DNA from: a virus
Lineage: Duplodnaviria > Heunggongvirae > Uroviricota > Caudoviricetes
DNA length: 51,583 nucleotides
Virus record (IMG/VR): IMGVR_UViG_2512047041_000005
Location: 1 to 51,583 of that record
Reading direction: 5' to 3' (one strand)
The notes under the pieces are model-generated. The model saw nothing but the letters and a program-made list of their open reading frames with translations, ran no database searches and was not told the origin of the DNA. This document shows, one piece after another, positions 32,248 to 41,209 of this stretch (its first letter is position 1; every line of letters begins with the position of its first letter). The position numbers and the translations under genes were made by a program.

Positions 32248-32339
32248 GTGGCAATCCCCAGAATCTCGCGACGAAGCGCCTGTACTGCGTCGCTTGACAG
32301 TCCCCCCTTACGGGCAATTTTCTCGGCGTTGCTGGCTGC

Positions 32340-32789
32340 CTACTGCGCTCTGGCCCGTACTTCAGACTGGAACTTTTTGAGGTTGACGGACGCGCGGGAC
32401 AGCGTAGCCACATTCTTCGCCACCTTCGACAGCAGGGCCACGCGTTCTTTAGGATCGACTTCGCCTTCTTCCGCCTCCTGCAACTGGACAATACTCTCGA
32501 ACAGCTCGGTCTGAATAAGGGCTATCACAGCCTCCGAACGCGCATCCTGATCGTCTGCTGCGCCTTCGGTCAGCATGCGGGCCGCTTCTGTTGCCGCACG
32601 GATAGCACCATAGCGGCGCTCAATCTTCTGTCCATAGCGATGGATAGCGGATTTGCTGATGACGTACCCCCGCTCACGCAGCAGGGACTCCAGCTCGTTA
32701 TACCCGCTGAAGCCGGATTCAGTCAGCGCCCGTTCAAGCCAGCGGCGCACGTCTTCCGGCAGCTTTTCTATTGTGCTGCGTCTGGCCAT
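32340..32789 (-). CDS. Terminase small subunit-like DNA-binding protein
   Basis: 149 aa basic/helical protein immediately upstream of the terminase large subunit. Confidence 0.55.
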   Translation of the reverse strand: MARRSTIEKLPEDVRRWLERALTESGFSGYNELESLLRERGYVISKSAIHRYGQKIERRYGAIRAATEAARMLTEGAADDQDARSEAVIALIQTELFESIVQLQEAEEGEVDPKERVALLSKVAKNVATLSRASVNLKKFQSEVRARAQ

Positions 32790-33100
32790 TATTCACTCCA
32801 GTACTTTTCCGGGCGGGCAATACCCGGACCACATTCCACGGTGTATTCCACCAGGTCTACGCCGAGGCGGGTCAGGTCAGCAAACCAGTCGCCAGAAGGT
32901 TTTTTCTCCAGATCAACCATTTTACGGTCAGCCAGATAATCCAGTTCGCGGCGCAGTTCCAGCGGTGTGGTGTCCGGGTAGATGGCACGGGACACATCCA
33001 GCAGCAGCGTCTCGCTGGCGGTGTAAGGGCGGGTCTTGTTCAGGGCAACCAGCAGACTCCAGCGCAGGGATTCGCGGCGTACCCGGGTAATATCGACCAT
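32789..33100 (-). CDS. Hypothetical protein
   Basis: 103 aa, tightly packed between lysis and packaging genes. Confidence 0.45.
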   Translation of the reverse strand: MVDITRVRRESLRWSLLVALNKTRPYTASETLLLDVSRAIYPDTTPLELRRELDYLADRKMVDLEKKPSGDWFADLTRLGVDLVEYTVECGPGIARPEKYWSE

Positions 33101-34799: not shown

Positions 34800-35150
34800 T
34801 TAAAGCCCCATCGCAACAGCCAGGCAGACCGCTGCAACAATCAGTGCACGGCGGATTAACGCAGCAGAAAACACCAGGTGAAGGCCGGTCTGTACCGGGA
34901 AACGCCCTTCAGCCATCAGCCTGTCGTCATGTTTCAGGTACTGACCGGGACGGGCTTTGGGGAAGAGCGAACGGTCAAGCCAGTAACCCAGCACTGCTGC
35001 CAGCGTGATGAGTGCCAGCTTGTAGATCACAACAGGCAGCTGCTGTGGTGAGACCAGAGCGATGGTGCCCAGCAACAGCACTGAGGTCAGCAGCCAGCCG
35101 CTGAGGCGAGGTTTTTTAACAGGGGGAATGAATTTTTTCAGGTTTTTCAT
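34800..35150 (-). CDS. Putative holin
   Basis: 116 aa from internal ATG with GGAG Shine-Dalgarno; three hydrophobic segments; directly upstream of endolysin. Confidence 0.5.
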   Translation of the reverse strand: MKNLKKFIPPVKKPRLSGWLLTSVLLLGTIALVSPQQLPVVIYKLALITLAAVLGYWLDRSLFPKARPGQYLKHDDRLMAEGRFPVQTGLHLVFSAALIRRALIVAAVCLAVAMGL

Positions 35151-35280
35151 GTGTGTCTCCTCGTTTGGTGGAGACAGCATCACAAATACAGGGCGCAAAG
35201 GATTTTAAAGCGCGTTAAGAGAGCCGGGGATACGGGATGTGCAGGATAAACGATGAATTATTCACAGAGGAGAATACGAT

Positions 35281-35757
35281 ATGACGCACACACTGAATCC
35301 GGTCATCACTGTCACTGTGTCCGGTCCTGTGGGCAGCGGTAAAAGTTACGTACTGGCGCGGATAGAAGAGATGGTGAAACAGGAACTCGGAAACAGCGTC
35401 ATTGTCGATGCTGCTGACGTGGAGAATGAGCGCCGTATGAATGGCGAAGATCTGACGACCTGGCAGAAGCCACGGGGTGGCACAGTGATCAGGCTAGAGG
35501 AATACACGGGACAGGGCCTGTTGTCATACGGCGAGGAGCGTATCTGTCGGACGAATGAGCTGCTGGATGTTATATGCCCCACGGGCCGGCAACCCTGGAT
35601 ACTGCCCGATGCACTGCATGCCACCATTGCGGCACTGATGACAGTTTACGATCAGGAGCTGCTCATGAAGGAGTTACGTAAACTCACCGGTCAGCCAACA
35701 GAATGTTGTTCGTCTCCGAAGTACGGCAAACAGGAAAACGCCCCGGATAATCCTTAA
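35281..35757 (+). CDS. Small P-loop NTPase of unknown function
   Basis: 158 aa, Walker A GPVGSGKS at residues 15-22, possible Walker B VIVDAAD; opposite strand to all neighbours. Confidence 0.6.
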   Translation: MTHTLNPVITVTVSGPVGSGKSYVLARIEEMVKQELGNSVIVDAADVENERRMNGEDLTTWQKPRGGTVIRLEEYTGQGLLSYGEERICRTNELLDVICPTGRQPWILPDALHATIAALMTVYDQELLMKELRKLTGQPTECCSSPKYGKQENAPDNP

Positions 35758-35776
35758 GATACCTCCTGAACAGAAA

Positions 35777-35792
35777 CAGCCCTGAAGGGCTG
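35777..35792 (-). terminator. Intrinsic terminator after the repressor operon
   Basis: Hairpin CAGCCC-TGAA-GGGCTG right after the stop of 35795-36382, followed on the minus strand by TTTCTGTT. Confidence 0.5.
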
Positions 35793-35794
35793 CA

Positions 35795-36382
35795 CTAAAA
35801 AAAGAAGTGTATTATTGCCCAAACAGCTATAACGATGATTCCCAGCCCAAGAGCCGATTCTAACTTATCTTTGGCAGTCATTTTTACTGTTGTAGCGGGC
35901 GCAGGTAAGTCTTGCTGCTGTGGATTTTCTGTTAGTTGTTTACGAGAAGAAACATCGCCCCTATTAGTTTGCTTCATGTTGATTACAGATGCGTTATGGG
36001 CATTATCAGCAGCAATTGACTGAAGTTTTACAAAAGTTTTTGAATCTGTTTTAGCCAGAAGTAACCTATTTCCCGTAAACATTGCCTTAAAAGTGATAGT
36101 TTTTTTCGTCTTGTCCGCCGCACCAAGCAAACCTCCAATGACCAACCCTGCACCACCAAAGATTAATCCACCAAGCAAACCTGCGCCTGCCGCCTTACCT
36201 ATACGGCTTTCCTCTTCACTATCCGCAAGTTCAATCGATAAAAGCTCTTCTTTCAGATTTAATACAATATTTTCAGGAAAGCCTTGTTTTGGTTTTTTGG
36301 CAAACACGATGGTACCGAACCCCATGCTTGCCCACCCTTTAGGAAAACTTCCTGCGATAACCTGAATCCCTGCCATGTTCAT
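35795..36382 (-). CDS. Membrane protein with glycine-zipper segment and C-terminal TM helix
   Basis: AAGAGLLGGLIFGGAGLVIGGLLGAA plus C-terminal LGLGIIVIAVWAIIHFFF; AT-rich; last gene of the repressor operon. Confidence 0.65.
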   Translation of the reverse strand: MNMAGIQVIAGSFPKGWASMGFGTIVFAKKPKQGFPENIVLNLKEELLSIELADSEEESRIGKAAGAGLLGGLIFGGAGLVIGGLLGAADKTKKTITFKAMFTGNRLLLAKTDSKTFVKLQSIAADNAHNASVINMKQTNRGDVSSRKQLTENPQQQDLPAPATTVKMTAKDKLESALGLGIIVIAVWAIIHFFF

Positions 36383-36466
36383 CACCTTTTACATTAAAAT
36401 TTCAGAACGCAGCATGATGCCGCCTTTGTCTTTTTTCTGATCCCATGGTAATTCAGCTGTTATTTT

Positions 36467-37453
36467 CTATTTAAGAATAAAACGGTATTTACTGTCAGGA
36501 GTGCTTTGCTGATCAAGTAGCAGTGAACGACATGGAGCAGTCAAAACCCGAGCATAACTACCATCAGGGCTTATGTTAATGTAACAAACCTTGCCCTTAA
36601 CACTATAATTTTCGGGGACGGATGCCTTTGCTGATACAGTAAATTTAAGGGTATGCCAGCCCGTTTTTTGCTTGTAGCTTGAAACCGAATGGAAATCATC
36701 TGAGTACTTATTTAACCCTGGAAACATGCTGCGCAGTGCGGGGATGGAATCTTCTATTATTTTATCGTTGGTTTTAATGTTAAAAACGCTGGTTTCAGTA
36801 GAAGCTACTGCTTTGGCATTTCCCCATTTACCAGCGAACACAATCATTCCCACGAAAAATATTGCTACAAGAACTAACACTCCCCCCAACACTACTACAT
36901 GAGGCTTCCGGCTTCTGGTTGGTACAGTTGCGACTGATTTTGCACCGCTTTCCGATGGAGGTGATAGAGTTTTACTCTCATCACGAATATTCAGCAGATC
37001 ATCAAAATAACCAAACACAGCCTGCAACTGCTCTTTGTCTAGGCCTTTAAGATGGGTTGTACCGAAATGCTTCAGACAGTATCTGTCACGGTCAAGACGA
37101 TACCCAGGGTCAGTAAGCGCCATTATTTTGCTGACCAGAAGATTACAGTCCTTCATATTCTGGATCTGTTGTGCATATCTCTGAAGGATCTCAACCGCAC
37201 CATGATAATCAGCCGCAGTCATTTCATTAACTGTTTTGGTATTAAGTTTCGTGTGGATCGTCATCCATAGCTCGCGCTTACTTTCCCCCAGATCAACCAA
37301 TTCATCCATCAATCTGTGTAAATCGCGTTTTTGCAGCAACGAAATTGGTTGCTGGGCCGAAGGAAGTATGTCAGCAGAATAGTTATGAATGGTAACATCA
37401 CCGCTGACAACGTTACCCACATCCCCGTTAACTGTTTGCTTCTCTTTACTCAT
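36467..37453 (-). CDS. Bitopic membrane protein (cytoplasmic N domain, one TM, periplasmic C domain)
   Basis: 328 aa; TM HVVVLGGVLVLVAIFFVGMIVFAG; start overlaps repressor stop by 4 nt. Confidence 0.7.
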   Translation of the reverse strand: MSKEKQTVNGDVGNVVSGDVTIHNYSADILPSAQQPISLLQKRDLHRLMDELVDLGESKRELWMTIHTKLNTKTVNEMTAADYHGAVEILQRYAQQIQNMKDCNLLVSKIMALTDPGYRLDRDRYCLKHFGTTHLKGLDKEQLQAVFGYFDDLLNIRDESKTLSPPSESGAKSVATVPTRSRKPHVVVLGGVLVLVAIFFVGMIVFAGKWGNAKAVASTETSVFNIKTNDKIIEDSIPALRSMFPGLNKYSDDFHSVSSYKQKTGWHTLKFTVSAKASVPENYSVKGKVCYINISPDGSYARVLTAPCRSLLLDQQSTPDSKYRFILK

Positions 37454-37911
37454 CTTCTCTTGGTATTTTTGTTCATTATTCCACCTGTTCCTATGGTTAC
37501 GTTACCTTTGATAACATTCCCCAGAACATCTCCATGAATAACCTGTTCCGCCCGTTCTCTGGAGGAGCCAGTAGTCAAGGCCGACAAAACTGAACCTTTG
37601 ACCTGTAATGGTGCCTGCCGGTAGTGCTGCAGTAACTCCATTTCATCACGTGATAAAGTTATACCTGATGACTCCCCGGTAAGAATGAACTGTACATTGG
37701 CCCCAATTCTTGCAAAGGCTGCAAGTAACTCACCTCCGGGAACAGCAACCCCTCGTTCATATTTCCCCCACATTTCTCTTGAAACGCCACAAAGGGCTGC
37801 TACTTCAGCCTGCTTGAGTGATAACCGCGAACGCTCAGCTTTGAACCGCGACGCGCAAAGAGAATCAAAATTCACATAAACCTCATTGACAATGAGAACA
37901 ATAGTTCTCAT
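37450..37911 (-). CDS. Prophage repressor, HTH_XRE family
   Basis: 153 aa with HTH (LSLKQAEVAALCGVSREMWGKYERG); divergent from the ner-like gene across a 50-bp gap. Confidence 0.7.
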   Translation of the reverse strand: MRTIVLIVNEVYVNFDSLCASRFKAERSRLSLKQAEVAALCGVSREMWGKYERGVAVPGGELLAAFARIGANVQFILTGESSGITLSRDEMELLQHYRQAPLQVKGSVLSALTTGSSRERAEQVIHGDVLGNVIKGNVTIGTGGIMNKNTKRR

Positions 37912-37961
37912 AATCTATCACATATAAAACAAACATCATTGCATCAACAAAGGAGACAACA
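37912..37961. promoter_or_regulatory. Divergent promoter/operator region
   Basis: 50-bp AT-rich intergenic region between divergent regulators; ner-like gene has AAGGAG Shine-Dalgarno. Confidence 0.4.
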
Positions 37962-38150
37962 ATGACTTCCGAACAAGTTAAAAATCTCTTCCGTCAGCGT
38001 GGTATCACGTTTACCCGCTGGGCCGAAGAACACGGCTACAGCCGCAATGAGGTCTATCGTGTTCTCAATGGACAGACCAAAGCTCGTTACGGCAAAGCCC
38101 ATGAAATTGCCGTAAAACTGGGATTAAAACCCACGTCAAATGCGGCATAA
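37962..38150 (+). CDS. Ner/Cro-like small DNA-binding protein
   Basis: 62 aa; first gene of the rightward early operon. Confidence 0.6.
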   Translation: MTSEQVKNLFRQRGITFTRWAEEHGYSRNEVYRVLNGQTKARYGKAHEIAVKLGLKPTSNAA

Positions 38151-39439: not shown

Positions 39440-41209
39440 ATGAATGCTGCCCTGACTGAACGACTGGTTTATGTCGCCCGCGCGGCACGTGACGCGGGGC
39501 ATGGTAAACGCGGTGCAATATACGACGCTGCCTGTGCTGAACTTGGCATGTCCCGCGCCACTCTGCTGCGCAGGCTGAAGGAGGTCTCTGTGACTGATAA
39601 ACGCAAAAAACGCGCTGATGCCGGACGCAGCGCCCTGACCCGCGACGAAGCCGCGCTGATATCTGCCACACTGCGTGAGGCCACCCGCAAGAACGGTAAA
39701 CGCCTCTATTCCATCGCAGATGCAGTGGAAACCCTGCGGGCTAACGGCTTTATCACCGCAGGCAGAACAGATGAAACCACCGGTGAGTTTTTCCCGTTGT
39801 CTGAAGATGCCATCAGCCGTGCTCTGCGTAACTATGGCCTGCACCCGGAACAACTGGATGCTCCTGCACCGCATACCGAAGTGGCCAGTCTGCACCCCAA
39901 TCATGTCTGGCAGATTGACGCCTCACTCTGCACGCTTTACTACCTGAGCAATGGACATAAAGGGCTGCAGGTGATGGACAGCGCGAAGTTCTACAAGAAC
40001 AAGCCCGCTAACCTTGCCCGTATCGCCAGTGACCGCGTGTGGAGTTACGAGATTACCGACCATGCCAGCGGCTGGATTTACGTTGAGTATGTGACGGGCG
40101 CGGAATCAGGTGAGAACCTGTGTTCTGTGCTTATCAACGCCATGCAGGAGCGTGGCGGCGCAGACGTGCTGCACGGCGTGCCAAAAATACTCTATCTCGA
40201 CCCCGGCTCGGCAAACACCGCGGGTATGACGAAAAACATGTGCCGCTCACTGGGCATCGACCTGATAGCGCACAAGCCGCATAACGCCCGCGCCACCGGA
40301 CAGGTGGAAAAGGCGCGGGACATTATCGAACGCAAGCTGGAGCCGGGTCTGAAGTTCCGGCCGGTTCACAGTCTGGAAGAACTCAATGCGCTGGCCGCGA
40401 AATGGCGCAGCCACTTTAACGCCACGGCTGTTCACAGCCGCCACGGTAAAACCCGCACGGATATCTGGCTGAAGATTACTGCTGAGCAGCTGAAAAAAGC
40501 GCCTTCCGTTGAGGTATGTCGTGAACTGGCTGTGGCGGCACCAGAACTCCGCAAAGTCACGCCAAAACTTCGTGTCTCGTTCCGGGGCACTGAATTTGAC
40601 GTATCAACGGTACCGGGCGTACTGGTCGGTGAAAAACTGATGATTACCCGTAACCCGTGGCGCAGCGATGTGGCACAGGTGGTTCTGACCGGTGAGGACG
40701 GCCACGAGACGTTCTTCCTGGTCGAAGAAGTCAGAAAGAACGAGTTTGGCTTTGCTGAAGGCGCGGCGGTATTTGGCGAAAGTTACAAAGCCCTGCCGGA
40801 AACCCCGGCGCAGATGGCGGCAAAAGAAACCGAAGCGCTGGTCACCGGTACAGACAACGCCGCAGATGCAGCTGCCGCACGCAAGGCGAAGGCGCTGCCG
40901 TTCGGCGGGCGGCTTGACCCGTATAAACATATTGATGACGCCACACTTCCGGCCTATATGCCGAAGCGAGGTCAGGCCTCTGACGTACGCGGGTCGCGCA
41001 CTGAACAACGTCCCATGACTCATGTGGAGGCCGCGAAAGCCCTGCGCGATAAGTTCAGCGCCGACGGCCTTACCTGGACGCCGGAACATTACCGCCAGTT
41101 AACGGCACAGTATCCGGACGGCGTACCGGAAGCCGCACTGGATGAAGTCATGGCCACGCTGACCACGCCGGCCCGCAGCAGCGTTATCAGCATTGTTAAC
41201 GGCAACTGA
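39440..41209 (+). CDS. DDE transposase (rve-type core, not MuA-like)
   Basis: 589 aa, rve-like core (HPNHVWQIDASL...DPGSANTAGM...HNARATGQVEKA); followed by overlapping B-like ATPase. Confidence 0.8.
   Translation: MNAALTERLVYVARAARDAGHGKRGAIYDAACAELGMSRATLLRRLKEVSVTDKRKKRADAGRSALTRDEAALISATLREATRKNGKRLYSIADAVETLRANGFITAGRTDETTGEFFPLSEDAISRALRNYGLHPEQLDAPAPHTEVASLHPNHVWQIDASLCTLYYLSNGHKGLQVMDSAKFYKNKPANLARIASDRVWSYEITDHASGWIYVEYVTGAESGENLCSVLINAMQERGGADVLHGVPKILYLDPGSANTAGMTKNMCRSLGIDLIAHKPHNARATGQVEKARDIIERKLEPGLKFRPVHSLEELNALAAKWRSHFNATAVHSRHGKTRTDIWLKITAEQLKKAPSVEVCRELAVAAPELRKVTPKLRVSFRGTEFDVSTVPGVLVGEKLMITRNPWRSDVAQVVLTGEDGHETFFLVEEVRKNEFGFAEGAAVFGESYKALPETPAQMAAKETEALVTGTDNAADAAAARKAKALPFGGRLDPYKHIDDATLPAYMPKRGQASDVRGSRTEQRPMTHVEAAKALRDKFSADGLTWTPEHYRQLTAQYPDGVPEAALDEVMATLTTPARSSVISIVNGN

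What the first reader, a model, noticed from the sequence alone, without database searches (positions are those of the whole stretch)
35777..37961. Repressor-linked operon encoding two membrane proteins: candidate Rex-like exclusion module
The HTH_XRE repressor (37450-37911) is co-directional with and overlaps by 4 nt a 328-aa bitopic membrane protein (36467-37453), followed by a 195-aa glycine-zipper membrane protein (35795-36382); the unit ends at a hairpin terminator (35777-35792) just before the lysis genes. A repressor co-transcribed with membrane proteins mirrors lambda cI-rexA-rexB, so these should be expressed in the lysogen. The block is AT-rich relative to neighbours and has no counterpart in Mu. 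The repressor C-terminus (HGDVLGNVIKGNVTIG) and the membrane protein N-terminus (NGDVGNVVSGDVTIHNY) share a short peptide motif without DNA identity. The exclusion function is inference.
Basis: partly seen in the sequence, partly recalled or inferred. Interest (0 to 1): 0.85.

Follow-up and report, generated by a model that had tools for sequence, protein, structure and literature searches.

The report
Phage repressor with membrane-protein twin motif
In this E. coli prophage the repressor that keeps the virus silent ends in a 20-residue tail that closely copies the start of the membrane protein encoded right after it, and this matched pair recurs and co-varies in two unrelated phage families, which suggests an undescribed physical link between the viral on/off switch and the cell envelope.

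Summary
All three ORFs, the 4-nt overlap, the terminator hairpin, the AT-richness and the shared peptide are present. The window is a BcepMu-like transposable prophage of E. coli.

The "Rex-like pair" reading does not hold, because the two membrane proteins are not a unit. The 196-aa protein (Pfam PH_gly_zipper) is an independent moron. It occurs with other repressors where the 328-aa gene is absent, and the 328-aa gene occurs without it.

The conserved unit is the repressor plus the 328-aa protein. That protein has an N-terminal motif, an Flk_N domain, one TM helix and a periplasmic domain. In relatives the periplasmic domain is a separate lipoprotein gene, so the window gene is a fusion.

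The shared motif is the main result. Nine repressor/partner pairs were compared, from BcepMu-like prophages of Enterobacteria and Pseudomonas and from P2-like prophages including E. coli O157:H7. In every pair the repressor C-tail matches the N-terminus of its own downstream partner, and the sequence types co-vary (permutation 17/100,000). Composition (N, G, V high; K, L, P low), length and placement match amyloid signalling motif pairs.

The most likely mechanism is direct homotypic coupling of the repressor to an envelope-spanning partner. This is inferred, not shown. No matching description was found in the literature searched.

The parts
37886..37914 (+). Early promoter-like site (TTGACA-17-CATAAT) reading into the ner-like gene and the transposase operon
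   Evidence: 11/12 match to the consensus. It is a consensus match only; function was not tested.
37892..37911 (.). Perfect 20-bp palindrome ATGAGAACTATTGTTCTCAT in the promoter spacer: candidate repressor operator
   Evidence: Expected by chance 0.01 per window. It lies between the -35 and -10 of the early promoter. A half-site copy is at 38060-38070.
37450..37911 (-). XRE-family prophage repressor gene (153-aa ORF; likely 141 aa from GTG 37875)
   Evidence: HTH_31 and HTH_3; phrog_8 and phrog_2328 regulator/repressor families; divergent from the ner-like/IclR-HTH/transposase genes; homologues start at VNFDSL.
37489..37536 (-). Repressor C-tail motif HGDVLGNVIKGNVTIG (residues 126-141), followed by a basic end MNKNTKRR
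   Evidence: Conserved across two HTH specificity types: against E. coli A33 the HTH part is 53% identical and the C-part 99%. It matches the partner N-terminus.
36467..37453 (-). 328-aa bitopic membrane protein gene; its start overlaps the repressor stop in ATGA
   Evidence: phrog_10002. Homologues in Morganella, Salmonella, Yersinia and Serratia keep the same position.
37385..37429 (-). Partner N-terminal twin motif NGDVGNVVSGDVTIH (residues 9-23)
   Evidence: Nearly invariant in 14 homologues, while the linker after it varies. pLDDT is below 50 in the monomer model. Distant relatives keep variants of it.
37004..37348 (-). Cytoplasmic Flk_N helical domain (about residues 36-150)
   Evidence: NCBIfam PRK10715 (Flk): E 2.9e-12, residues 19-147, 46.6 bits, far below the 353-bit cutoff. 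Precomputed PF27202 Flk_N on the identical protein P0001 and on homologues. pLDDT is 76-93 for residues 31-100.
36830..36901 (-). Single transmembrane helix (about residues 185-208)
   Evidence: Hydropathy segment 181-213, mean 3.05. Helix 187-205 in the model.
36470..36811 (-). Periplasmic alpha/beta domain (residues 215-328) with two conserved Cys
   Evidence: pLDDT 83-94. Homologous to stand-alone lipoproteins and secreted proteins. These are encoded directly after short tail-anchored Flk_N genes in L008/L009 and in 14 of 30 distant loci.
35795..36385 (-). PH_gly_zipper membrane protein gene (193 aa from ATG 36376): an independent accessory gene
35776..35793 (-). Terminator-like hairpin GCAGCCC-TTCA-GGGCTGT directly after the stop codon
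   Evidence: it folds within a -14.1 kcal/mol structure. The T-run is weak (TTTCTGTTC).
35281..35757 (+). Opposite-strand truncated P-loop ORF (158 aa) between the operon and the holin gene; not part of the unit
   Evidence: It matches 157 of 242 positions of phrog_3787. Full-length 242-aa versions occur in PhiKM and in ST131-type prophages.

Best explanation
The region is the lysogeny operon of a BcepMu-like transposable prophage. It is a mosaic of two units.

Unit 1 is the conserved core. An XRE repressor ends in a G/N/V-rich tail of about 20 residues. That tail is a near-copy of the first 20 or so residues of the protein made from the next, translationally coupled gene. This partner is a bitopic inner-membrane protein: twin motif and Flk_N helical domain in the cytoplasm, one TM helix, and a periplasmic alpha/beta domain. 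I propose that the two motifs bind each other (homotypic beta pairing). That would tie the repressor to an envelope-spanning protein, so that repressor availability is coupled to the state of the envelope. The output I favour is control of repressor activity, meaning sequestration or inactivation and therefore a RecA-independent route to induction or to setting the lysogeny threshold.

Unit 2 is the PH_gly_zipper membrane protein. It is a separately mobile lysogenic-conversion gene of unknown function and is the better candidate for any exclusion role.

Shown: the anatomy, the conservation of the pair, the co-variation of the motif, the fusion/fission with the periplasmic protein, and the independence of unit 2. 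Inferred: physical binding, the direction and consequence of regulation, and expression in the lysogen.
For: (1) The repressor and Flk_N genes are adjacent, usually with a 4-nt overlap, in every locus examined where both genes are intact and fully on the contig. These are Yersinia, Serratia, Salmonella and metagenomic relatives (in L012 the repressor is degraded, with frameshifts and stops), 30 IMG/VR loci of a relative only 24-28% identical, four Pseudomonas-type prophages, and P2-like prophages including O157:H7.

(2) In each locus the best alignment between the repressor and its partner maps the repressor C-tail onto the partner's extreme N-terminus. Scores were reached by 0-10 of 1000 shuffles.

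(3) The motif differs sharply between lineages. Examples are GDVGNVVSGDVTI, FHGxVGQxxAGDINNYG, QQFNxxVxQVAAGxIxN and GxxNRxAGRDYxE. The repressor tail changes with its partner: in a 9x9 matrix the diagonal sum is 460 against a permuted mean of 298, and 17 of 100,000 permutations reach it.

(4) Repressors without the tail have no Flk_N partner: the 118-aa ST131-type repressor and the 121-aa Citrobacter-type repressor.

(5) The tail and partner are retained while the HTH specificity is swapped: 53% against 99% identity.

(6) Two orthogonal motif types, A and D, sit in one genome, E. coli 510016. This argues for pairwise specificity rather than a common host target.

(7) Rosetta-stone evidence: the periplasmic domain is a separate lipoprotein gene downstream of tail-anchored Flk_N genes elsewhere.

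(8) Other downstream membrane proteins carry the same N-terminal motif: a 2-TM protein in 13 of 30 loci, and two proteins in L016.

(9) Flk itself is a tail-anchored cytoplasmic regulator that acts through protein contacts at the membrane (PMC13344023).
Against: The motif is low-confidence coil in the AF2 monomer. There are exceptions. L044/L045 repressors lack the motif, and their partners carry an N-terminal extension. L047 has no XRE gene directly upstream. The Flk_N gene is frameshifted in phage 520873, so it is dispensable for at least that prophage. Making both proteins 1:1 from one operon is awkward for a simple antirepressor unless the partner is gated. No signal sensed by the periplasmic domain is known. 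Fold and sequence searches gave no informative relatives.
Confidence: 0.5

Rival explanations
1. Rex-like or superinfection-exclusion module. The membrane proteins are made in the lysogen and block or abort infection by other phages. Linkage to the repressor is only a matter of sharing its promoter.
For: The genes lie downstream of the repressor in the lysogenic operon. The block is AT-rich. It sits in a variable hotspot between the repressor and holin that carries other cargo, such as Dam methylase and DUF2441. Periplasmic or lipoprotein partners recall known exclusion lipoproteins; this is from my own knowledge (Ltp of TP-J34, Llp of T5, Cor). In the Mu-like Pseudomonas phage Fc02, genes transcribed with the repressor do exclude phages (PMC9936078).
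Against: There are no RexA/RexB Pfam hits and no PADLOC hit for either protein. The two proteins are not a conserved pair. Exclusion does not explain why the repressor protein carries a co-varying copy of the partner's N-terminus, nor why tail-less repressors lack the partner. The two readings are not mutually exclusive.
Confidence: 0.2
2. Toxin-antitoxin or abortive-infection logic. The XRE protein doubles as an antitoxin whose tail neutralises a toxic membrane partner. Loss of the repressor frees the partner.
For: An XRE gene overlapping a downstream gene by 4 nt is the usual type II TA layout. There are weak HTH similarities to antitoxins: MqsA, Y4mF/HipB-type and PezA, E 0.0005-0.03. A tail-to-partner contact would fit antitoxin action.
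Against: The XRE gene sits exactly at the immunity position, facing the early promoter with a palindrome in its spacer, and at the C-repressor position in P2-like phages. The partner matches no toxin family. Killing the cell on derepression would work against the phage's own lytic cycle.
Confidence: 0.1
3. The motif is a shared tag read by a third party, such as a host protease, adaptor or chaperone. It is not a contact between the two proteins.
For: Terminal placement is typical of degrons. Mu repressor stability is controlled through its C-terminus by ClpXP (own knowledge).
Against: Very different motif types occur in the same host species, and even in the same genome, each matched only within its own operon. 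A single host reader would hold the motif constant. The same sequence at an N-terminus and at a C-terminus is unusual for one recognition site.
Confidence: 0.07

Closest known systems
Amyloid signalling motif pairs: bacterial BASS in Bell/NLR gene pairs, and Bab/Agp (BASS11) in E. coli prophage defence islands
   Same: A motif of about 20-25 residues is shared by the products of adjacent, sometimes overlapping, genes. It sits at the C-terminus of one and the N-terminus of the other. BASS motifs are reported as enriched in N, G, V, Q, I and depleted in K, L, P; the same bias is seen here. Motif families co-vary within pairs. The setting is a prophage in E. coli.
   Different: The partner domains are an XRE repressor and an Flk_N membrane protein, not an NLR/TPR sensor and a pore-forming Bell/Bab effector. 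Fibril formation and templating were not tested. The sequence relation to BASS1-11 could not be checked because no motif sequences were available in text.
Lambda cI-rexA-rexB
   Same: Genes sit downstream of the repressor on its strand, presumably expressed in the lysogen, and at least one product is a membrane protein.
   Different: There is no sequence relation. RexA/RexB do not share a motif with CI. Here the two membrane proteins are independent of each other.
Flk (Fluke/RflH), flagellar type III secretion-switch regulator of Salmonella and E. coli
   Same: The Flk_N domain. The cytoplasmic body is held at the inner membrane by a C-terminal anchor, which is the exact topology of the short relatives. 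Flk acts by protein contacts at the membrane.
   Different: The score is far below the family cutoff (46.6 against 353 bits). The gene is in a prophage immunity context. It has an extra N-terminal twin motif, and in the window a periplasmic domain after the TM helix.
Repressor/antirepressor operons (ImmR-ImmA type) and membrane sequestration of transcription factors (Mlc-PtsG, anti-sigma factors); own knowledge
   Same: A regulator of the repressor is encoded directly after it, and a membrane protein controls the availability of a DNA-binding protein.
   Different: There is no protease domain and no known sensing domain. The proposed contact is through duplicated terminal motifs rather than a folded interface.
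Prophage exclusion lipoproteins and bitopic exclusion proteins (Ltp of TP-J34, HK97 gp15, P22 SieA); own knowledge
   Same: Envelope proteins encoded in the lysogeny module next to the repressor.
   Different: No homology was detected. Those proteins have no cytoplasmic domain matched to the repressor.

Membership tests
RexA/RexB exclusion system | RexA and RexB protein families (RexB is a polytopic membrane protein) | tested here: not met
   There is no RexA/RexB Pfam hit at E<=0.1 and no PADLOC hit for either membrane protein. The topologies are bitopic, and gly-zipper plus C-terminal TM.
RexA/RexB exclusion system | Two products act as an obligate pair encoded together | tested here: not met
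   Each gene occurs without the other in relatives.
RexA/RexB exclusion system | Co-transcribed with the repressor in the lysogen, and excludes other phages | not testable with these tools
   Gene order, the 4-nt overlap and the terminator are compatible with co-transcription. No transcript or phenotype data are available.
XRE-family prophage repressor | HTH_3/HTH_31 DNA-binding domain | tested here: met
   HTH_31 at 30.5 bits (cutoff 27) and HTH_3 at 23.0 bits (cutoff 23).
XRE-family prophage repressor | Immunity position: divergent from the early operon, with an operator in the early promoter | tested here: met
   The gene is divergent from the ner-like/IclR-HTH/DUF3102/transposase genes. 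A 20-bp palindrome lies in the promoter spacer. DNA binding itself was not tested.
Flk family (NCBIfam PRK10715 / Pfam Flk_N PF27202) | Flk_N domain | tested here: met
   E 2.9e-12 over residues 19-147. Precomputed PF27202 on the identical protein and on relatives.
Flk family (NCBIfam PRK10715 / Pfam Flk_N PF27202) | Full-length equivalog of Flk (score above 353 bits) with a role in the flagellar switch | tested here: not met
   46.6 bits against a cutoff of 353. The prophage context and added domains mean it is a domain relative, not Flk.
Flk family (NCBIfam PRK10715 / Pfam Flk_N PF27202) | C-terminal membrane anchor with a cytoplasmic body | tested here: met
   Most relatives are 185-270 aa and end in a hydrophobic segment. 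In the window the TM helix is followed by a fused periplasmic domain.
Amyloid signalling motif pair (BASS/FASS type) | Short motif shared by the products of adjacent genes, C-terminal in one and N-terminal in the other | tested here: met
Amyloid signalling motif pair (BASS/FASS type) | Length of about 20-25 residues and a composition bias (N, G, V, Q, I up; K, L, P down) | tested here: met
   N 3.3x, G 2.3x, V 1.9x, Q 1.3x, I 1.2x; K 0.32, L 0.29, P 0.13 over 16 instances. The criterion is taken from 10.1101/2020.01.06.895854.
Amyloid signalling motif pair (BASS/FASS type) | Association with an NLR-type or other sensor and a cell-death effector | tested here: not met
   The partners are an XRE repressor and Flk_N or other small membrane proteins.
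Amyloid signalling motif pair (BASS/FASS type) | Forms cross-beta fibrils and templates its partner | not testable with these tools
   The monomer AF2 model gives pLDDT below 50 and no strands for residues 1-30. No multimer prediction or experiment was possible.
PH_gly_zipper (Pfam PF27000) | PH-like fold with an inserted glycine zipper | tested here: met

The most novel reading that the evidence does not exclude
The twin motifs are a new family of amyloid-type signalling sequences, and the effector is a transcription factor. When the membrane partner clusters, for example after an envelope or periplasmic cue, its N-terminal motifs template the repressor tails into a cross-beta assembly. This would strip the repressor from its operators in a self-propagating, switch-like way. 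It would be a prion-like, RecA-independent trigger for prophage induction. The orthogonal motif types would keep co-resident prophages from cross-talking.
Probability: 0.2. Interest if true: 0.92.

Novelty: new variant of a known kind. Interest (0 to 1): 0.8.

Why it matters
How prophages that lack a LexA-like self-cleaving repressor decide to induce is largely an open question. This module offers a concrete, testable candidate. It is common: whole-region matches occur in about 99 of 5,426 complete E. coli genomes for the BcepMu-like form and 504 for the P2-like form, including O157:H7.

If the motifs bind each other, the result is a direct protein link between the lysis/lysogeny switch and the envelope. 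It would also give a set of naturally orthogonal 20-residue tags. If the motifs are amyloid-like, amyloid signalling would extend from cell-death effectors to gene regulation.

The work also suggests that the flagellar regulator Flk is related to a prophage immunity protein.

Tried and rejected
- Foldseek of the 328-aa model against the PDB gave nothing at E<=0.001.
- The afdb50 library was unavailable.
- PDB sequence searches with both family profiles found nothing.
- PADLOC and NCBIfam gave nothing for the 196-aa protein.
- tblastn of the 196-aa protein and of P0109 against isolated phages found no match. The 328-aa N-terminal part and P0045 found only phage 520873.
- The search for related loci with the diverse alignment failed because no stretch was conserved enough. 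Single-protein scans with P0058, P0043 and P0044 found nothing.
- A regular-expression scan for motif instances was too strict and returned nothing.
- Literature searches found no description linking repressors, Flk_N, DUF2511 or amyloid motifs.
- I considered that the peptide similarity was a recent DNA duplication. I rejected this because only 4 of the 10 identical residues share a codon, and because the pairing holds across motif types that are unalignable with each other.
- I considered the PH_gly_zipper gene as a lysis regulator, since in L016 it abuts the holin gene. This is not supported in the window, where a terminator and an opposite-strand ORF intervene.
Full report
**What is there**

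The window matches E. coli chromosomes (CE10, IAI39 and others) at 100% identity. The closest isolated phage, PhiKM, is classified in Bcepmuvirus.

The layout is BcepMu-like. A ner-like gene (37962-38150), an IclR-type HTH gene, a DUF3102 gene and the transposase (39440-41209) read rightwards. The repressor, the two membrane-protein genes, the lysis cassette (holin 34800-35198, SLT endolysin, Rz-like spanin) and the structural genes read leftwards.

- The repressor carries HTH_31/HTH_3.
- The 328-aa ORF overlaps the repressor stop in ATGA and has one hydrophobic helix.
- The third ORF has a glycine-zipper segment and a C-terminal TM helix.
- A terminator-like hairpin follows its stop codon. 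It is the only such site in 3.6 kb.
- GC falls to 0.42-0.44 from 0.55-0.59.

Small corrections apply.
- The annotated repressor ATG lies inside a perfect 20-bp palindrome (37892-37911). That palindrome fills the spacer of the divergent early promoter TTGACA-17-CATAAT.
- Homologues start at the GTG twelve codons downstream, which has a GAGG Shine-Dalgarno sequence.
- The third gene most likely starts at ATG 36376.
- A truncated opposite-strand P-loop ORF separates the terminator from the holin gene.

**The two membrane proteins are not a pair**

The 196-aa protein belongs to Pfam PH_gly_zipper (PF27000), by precomputed hits on homologues.
- In Citrobacter-type BcepMu-like prophages it follows a different repressor of 121 aa, and no 328-aa gene is present.
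- In L016 it abuts the holin gene.

The 328-aa gene likewise occurs without it.
- In Serratia nothing follows on that strand.
- In Yersinia and Salmonella other genes follow.
- In E. coli 510016 a 203-aa protein and a DUF2441 protein follow.

The commonest E. coli variant of this prophage (ST131-type) has a 118-aa repressor, neither membrane gene, and a Dam methylase in the slot. The space between the repressor and holin is therefore a cargo hotspot, and PH_gly_zipper is one item of cargo.

**What the 328-aa protein is**

- Residues 19-147 match the NCBIfam model of the flagellar regulator Flk (E 2.9e-12, far below the equivalog cutoff). The identical database protein carries Pfam Flk_N.
- AF2 gives confident helices for residues 31-100 and a confident alpha/beta domain for residues 221-328. 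Residues 1-30 and the linkers are low-confidence.
- A full-library HMMER search shows that the two halves occur separately.
  - The N-terminal half occurs in proteins of 185-270 aa that end in a hydrophobic anchor. This is Flk's own topology.
  - The C-terminal half occurs in proteins of 130-200 aa (a few longer) that start with a lipobox or signal peptide.
- In L008/L009 and in 14 of 30 distant loci the lipoprotein gene directly follows the tail-anchored Flk_N gene.
- The window gene is therefore a fusion of two neighbouring genes. This fixes its topology (N-terminus in, C-terminus out) and implies that the two parts work together.
- Where that lipoprotein is absent, another secreted or membrane protein usually takes the slot. 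In P2-like prophages it is a DUF2511 protein.

**The twin motif**

- The partner's N-terminal KQTVNGDVGNVVSGDVTIxNY is nearly invariant in 14 homologues, while the next ten residues vary.
- The repressor tail ERAEQVIHGDVLGNVIKGNVTIG is kept across two HTH specificity types. Against E. coli A33 the HTH part is 53% identical and the C-part 99%.
- The similarity is held at protein level. Ten of 15 residues are identical, but only four of those use the same codon.

I then looked at relatives only 24-28% identical. In 30 IMG/VR loci, four Pseudomonas-type prophages and P2-like prophages, the upstream gene is again an XRE repressor ending at the partner's start. Its tail again resembles the partner's N-terminus. 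The motif itself is different in each lineage:

| Locus | Repressor tail | Partner N-terminus |
|---|---|---|
| L021 | KQTFHGSVGQSVAGNVTNKSGVTFNVG | MSQDFHGDVGQAAAGDINNYGVSISL |
| L054 | GVGQQFNAGVGTVTSGDITNSG | MTQQFNQPVDQVAAGNINNYLG |
| L052 | AISVEGDNNRTAGRDYHE | GDIDVDGSKNRVAGRDYIE |
| O157:H7 P2-like (L056) | LNISGGNNRIAGRDYNE | VNSNGSNNRVAGRDFHE |

- Local alignments exceed shuffles (0-10 of 1000).
- A 9x9 tail-by-N-terminus matrix is block-diagonal. Only 17 of 100,000 permuted pairings reach the observed sum.
- Tail-less repressors have no such partner.
- Further downstream proteins can carry the motif at their N-terminus. A 2-TM protein does so in 13 of 30 loci. In L016 a 74-aa protein and a 2-TM protein do so, and no Flk_N gene is present.
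- E. coli 510016 holds a type A module and a type D module in one genome.

**Mechanism**

Co-variation of two terminal peptides inside each operon is the signature of a direct, specific contact between the two peptides. So are the orthogonal types found within one host and the loss of both peptides together. I therefore propose that the repressor is physically coupled to an envelope-spanning partner (confidence 0.5), with control of repressor availability as the most likely output.

The contact, its direction and its trigger are all inferred. The following count against a simple picture:
- L044/L045 repressors lack the motif.
- L047 has no XRE gene directly upstream.
- The partner gene is frameshifted in phage 520873.
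- Both proteins are made 1:1 from one operon.

Rivals are exclusion (0.2), toxin-antitoxin logic (0.1) and a tag read by a host factor (0.07). The last is disfavoured by the orthogonal types.

**Comparison with known systems**

There is no relation to RexA/RexB.

The closest logic is that of amyloid signalling motif pairs. Their features are adjacent genes, a C-terminal motif in one product and an N-terminal copy in the other, a length of about 25 residues, enrichment in N, G, V, Q, I and depletion in K, L, P. An experimentally shown example, Bab/Agp, sits in E. coli prophage defence islands.

The motif here has the same bias: N 3.3x, G 2.3x, V 1.9x, K 0.32, L 0.29, P 0.13. The associated domains differ, and fibril formation could not be tested, so membership stays open.

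Flk is a domain relative only.

I found no description of this module in the held literature.

**Verdict**

- The Rex-like reading is only partly supported.
- The real finding is a widespread repressor/Flk_N/envelope-protein module joined by co-varying twin motifs.
- The PH_gly_zipper gene is unrelated cargo.

Noticed in passing
window 35281-35757 (+): This P-loop ORF of 158 aa is a truncated copy of a 242-aa protein (phrog_3787). The full-length form is present in phage PhiKM and in ST131-type prophages. RefSeq calls it 'ABC transporter ATPase'.
   Followed up: partly
window 37875-37911: The RefSeq start of the repressor (ATG 37911) lies inside the candidate operator palindrome. A GTG at 37875 with a GAGG Shine-Dalgarno sequence matches the start used in homologues. 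The repressor's own promoter was not located.
   Followed up: partly
L056 2506-3953 (E. coli O157:H7 86-24, P2-like prophage next to yecA): The same three-gene module sits between the repressor and integrase: an XRE repressor with a tail motif, a 216-aa tail-anchored Flk_N protein, and a periplasmic DUF2511 protein. 504 of 5,426 complete E. coli genomes match this region.
   Followed up: partly
L055 2040-3080 (Escherichia phage 520873, NC_049344.1): The Flk_N gene downstream of the repressor is split by a frameshift into 55-aa and 115-aa ORFs. It is not annotated in the record.
   Followed up: partly
L016 3894-5396: Three consecutive proteins carry the motif: the repressor tail ..KQVFHGTVSGDVAGRDIVNKRKK, a 74-aa protein starting MTEANQEFNGSIEGGVAGRDIVHE, and a 2-TM protein starting MTEQEFYGDVGQVAGRDIINE. 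They are followed by PH_gly_zipper and holin, and there is no Flk_N gene. This motif looks intermediate between the FHGxVGQ and AGRDY types.
   Followed up: partly
chromosomal flk of E. coli and Salmonella (not in the window): Flk shares the Flk_N domain and the tail-anchor topology with these prophage proteins. This suggests that the flagellar regulator and the immunity-module protein have a common origin, possibly by domestication. I did not examine the Flk sequence itself.
   Followed up: no
L001 3045-3590 (CE10; about window 32250-32800): RefSeq marks the DUF3486 (Mu gp27-like) gene of this prophage as a pseudogene with an internal stop. The prophage in this lineage may therefore be defective.
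   Followed up: no
L049 1004-2600 (E. coli 510016): In an otherwise near-identical prophage, a 203-aa protein with no family hit and a DUF2441 protein replace PH_gly_zipper. This illustrates cargo turnover at the hotspot.
   Followed up: partly
window 38060-38070: A copy of the operator half-site (TGTTCTCAATG) lies inside the ner-like gene, about 160 bp from the main palindrome. It could be a second, weaker operator.
   Followed up: no
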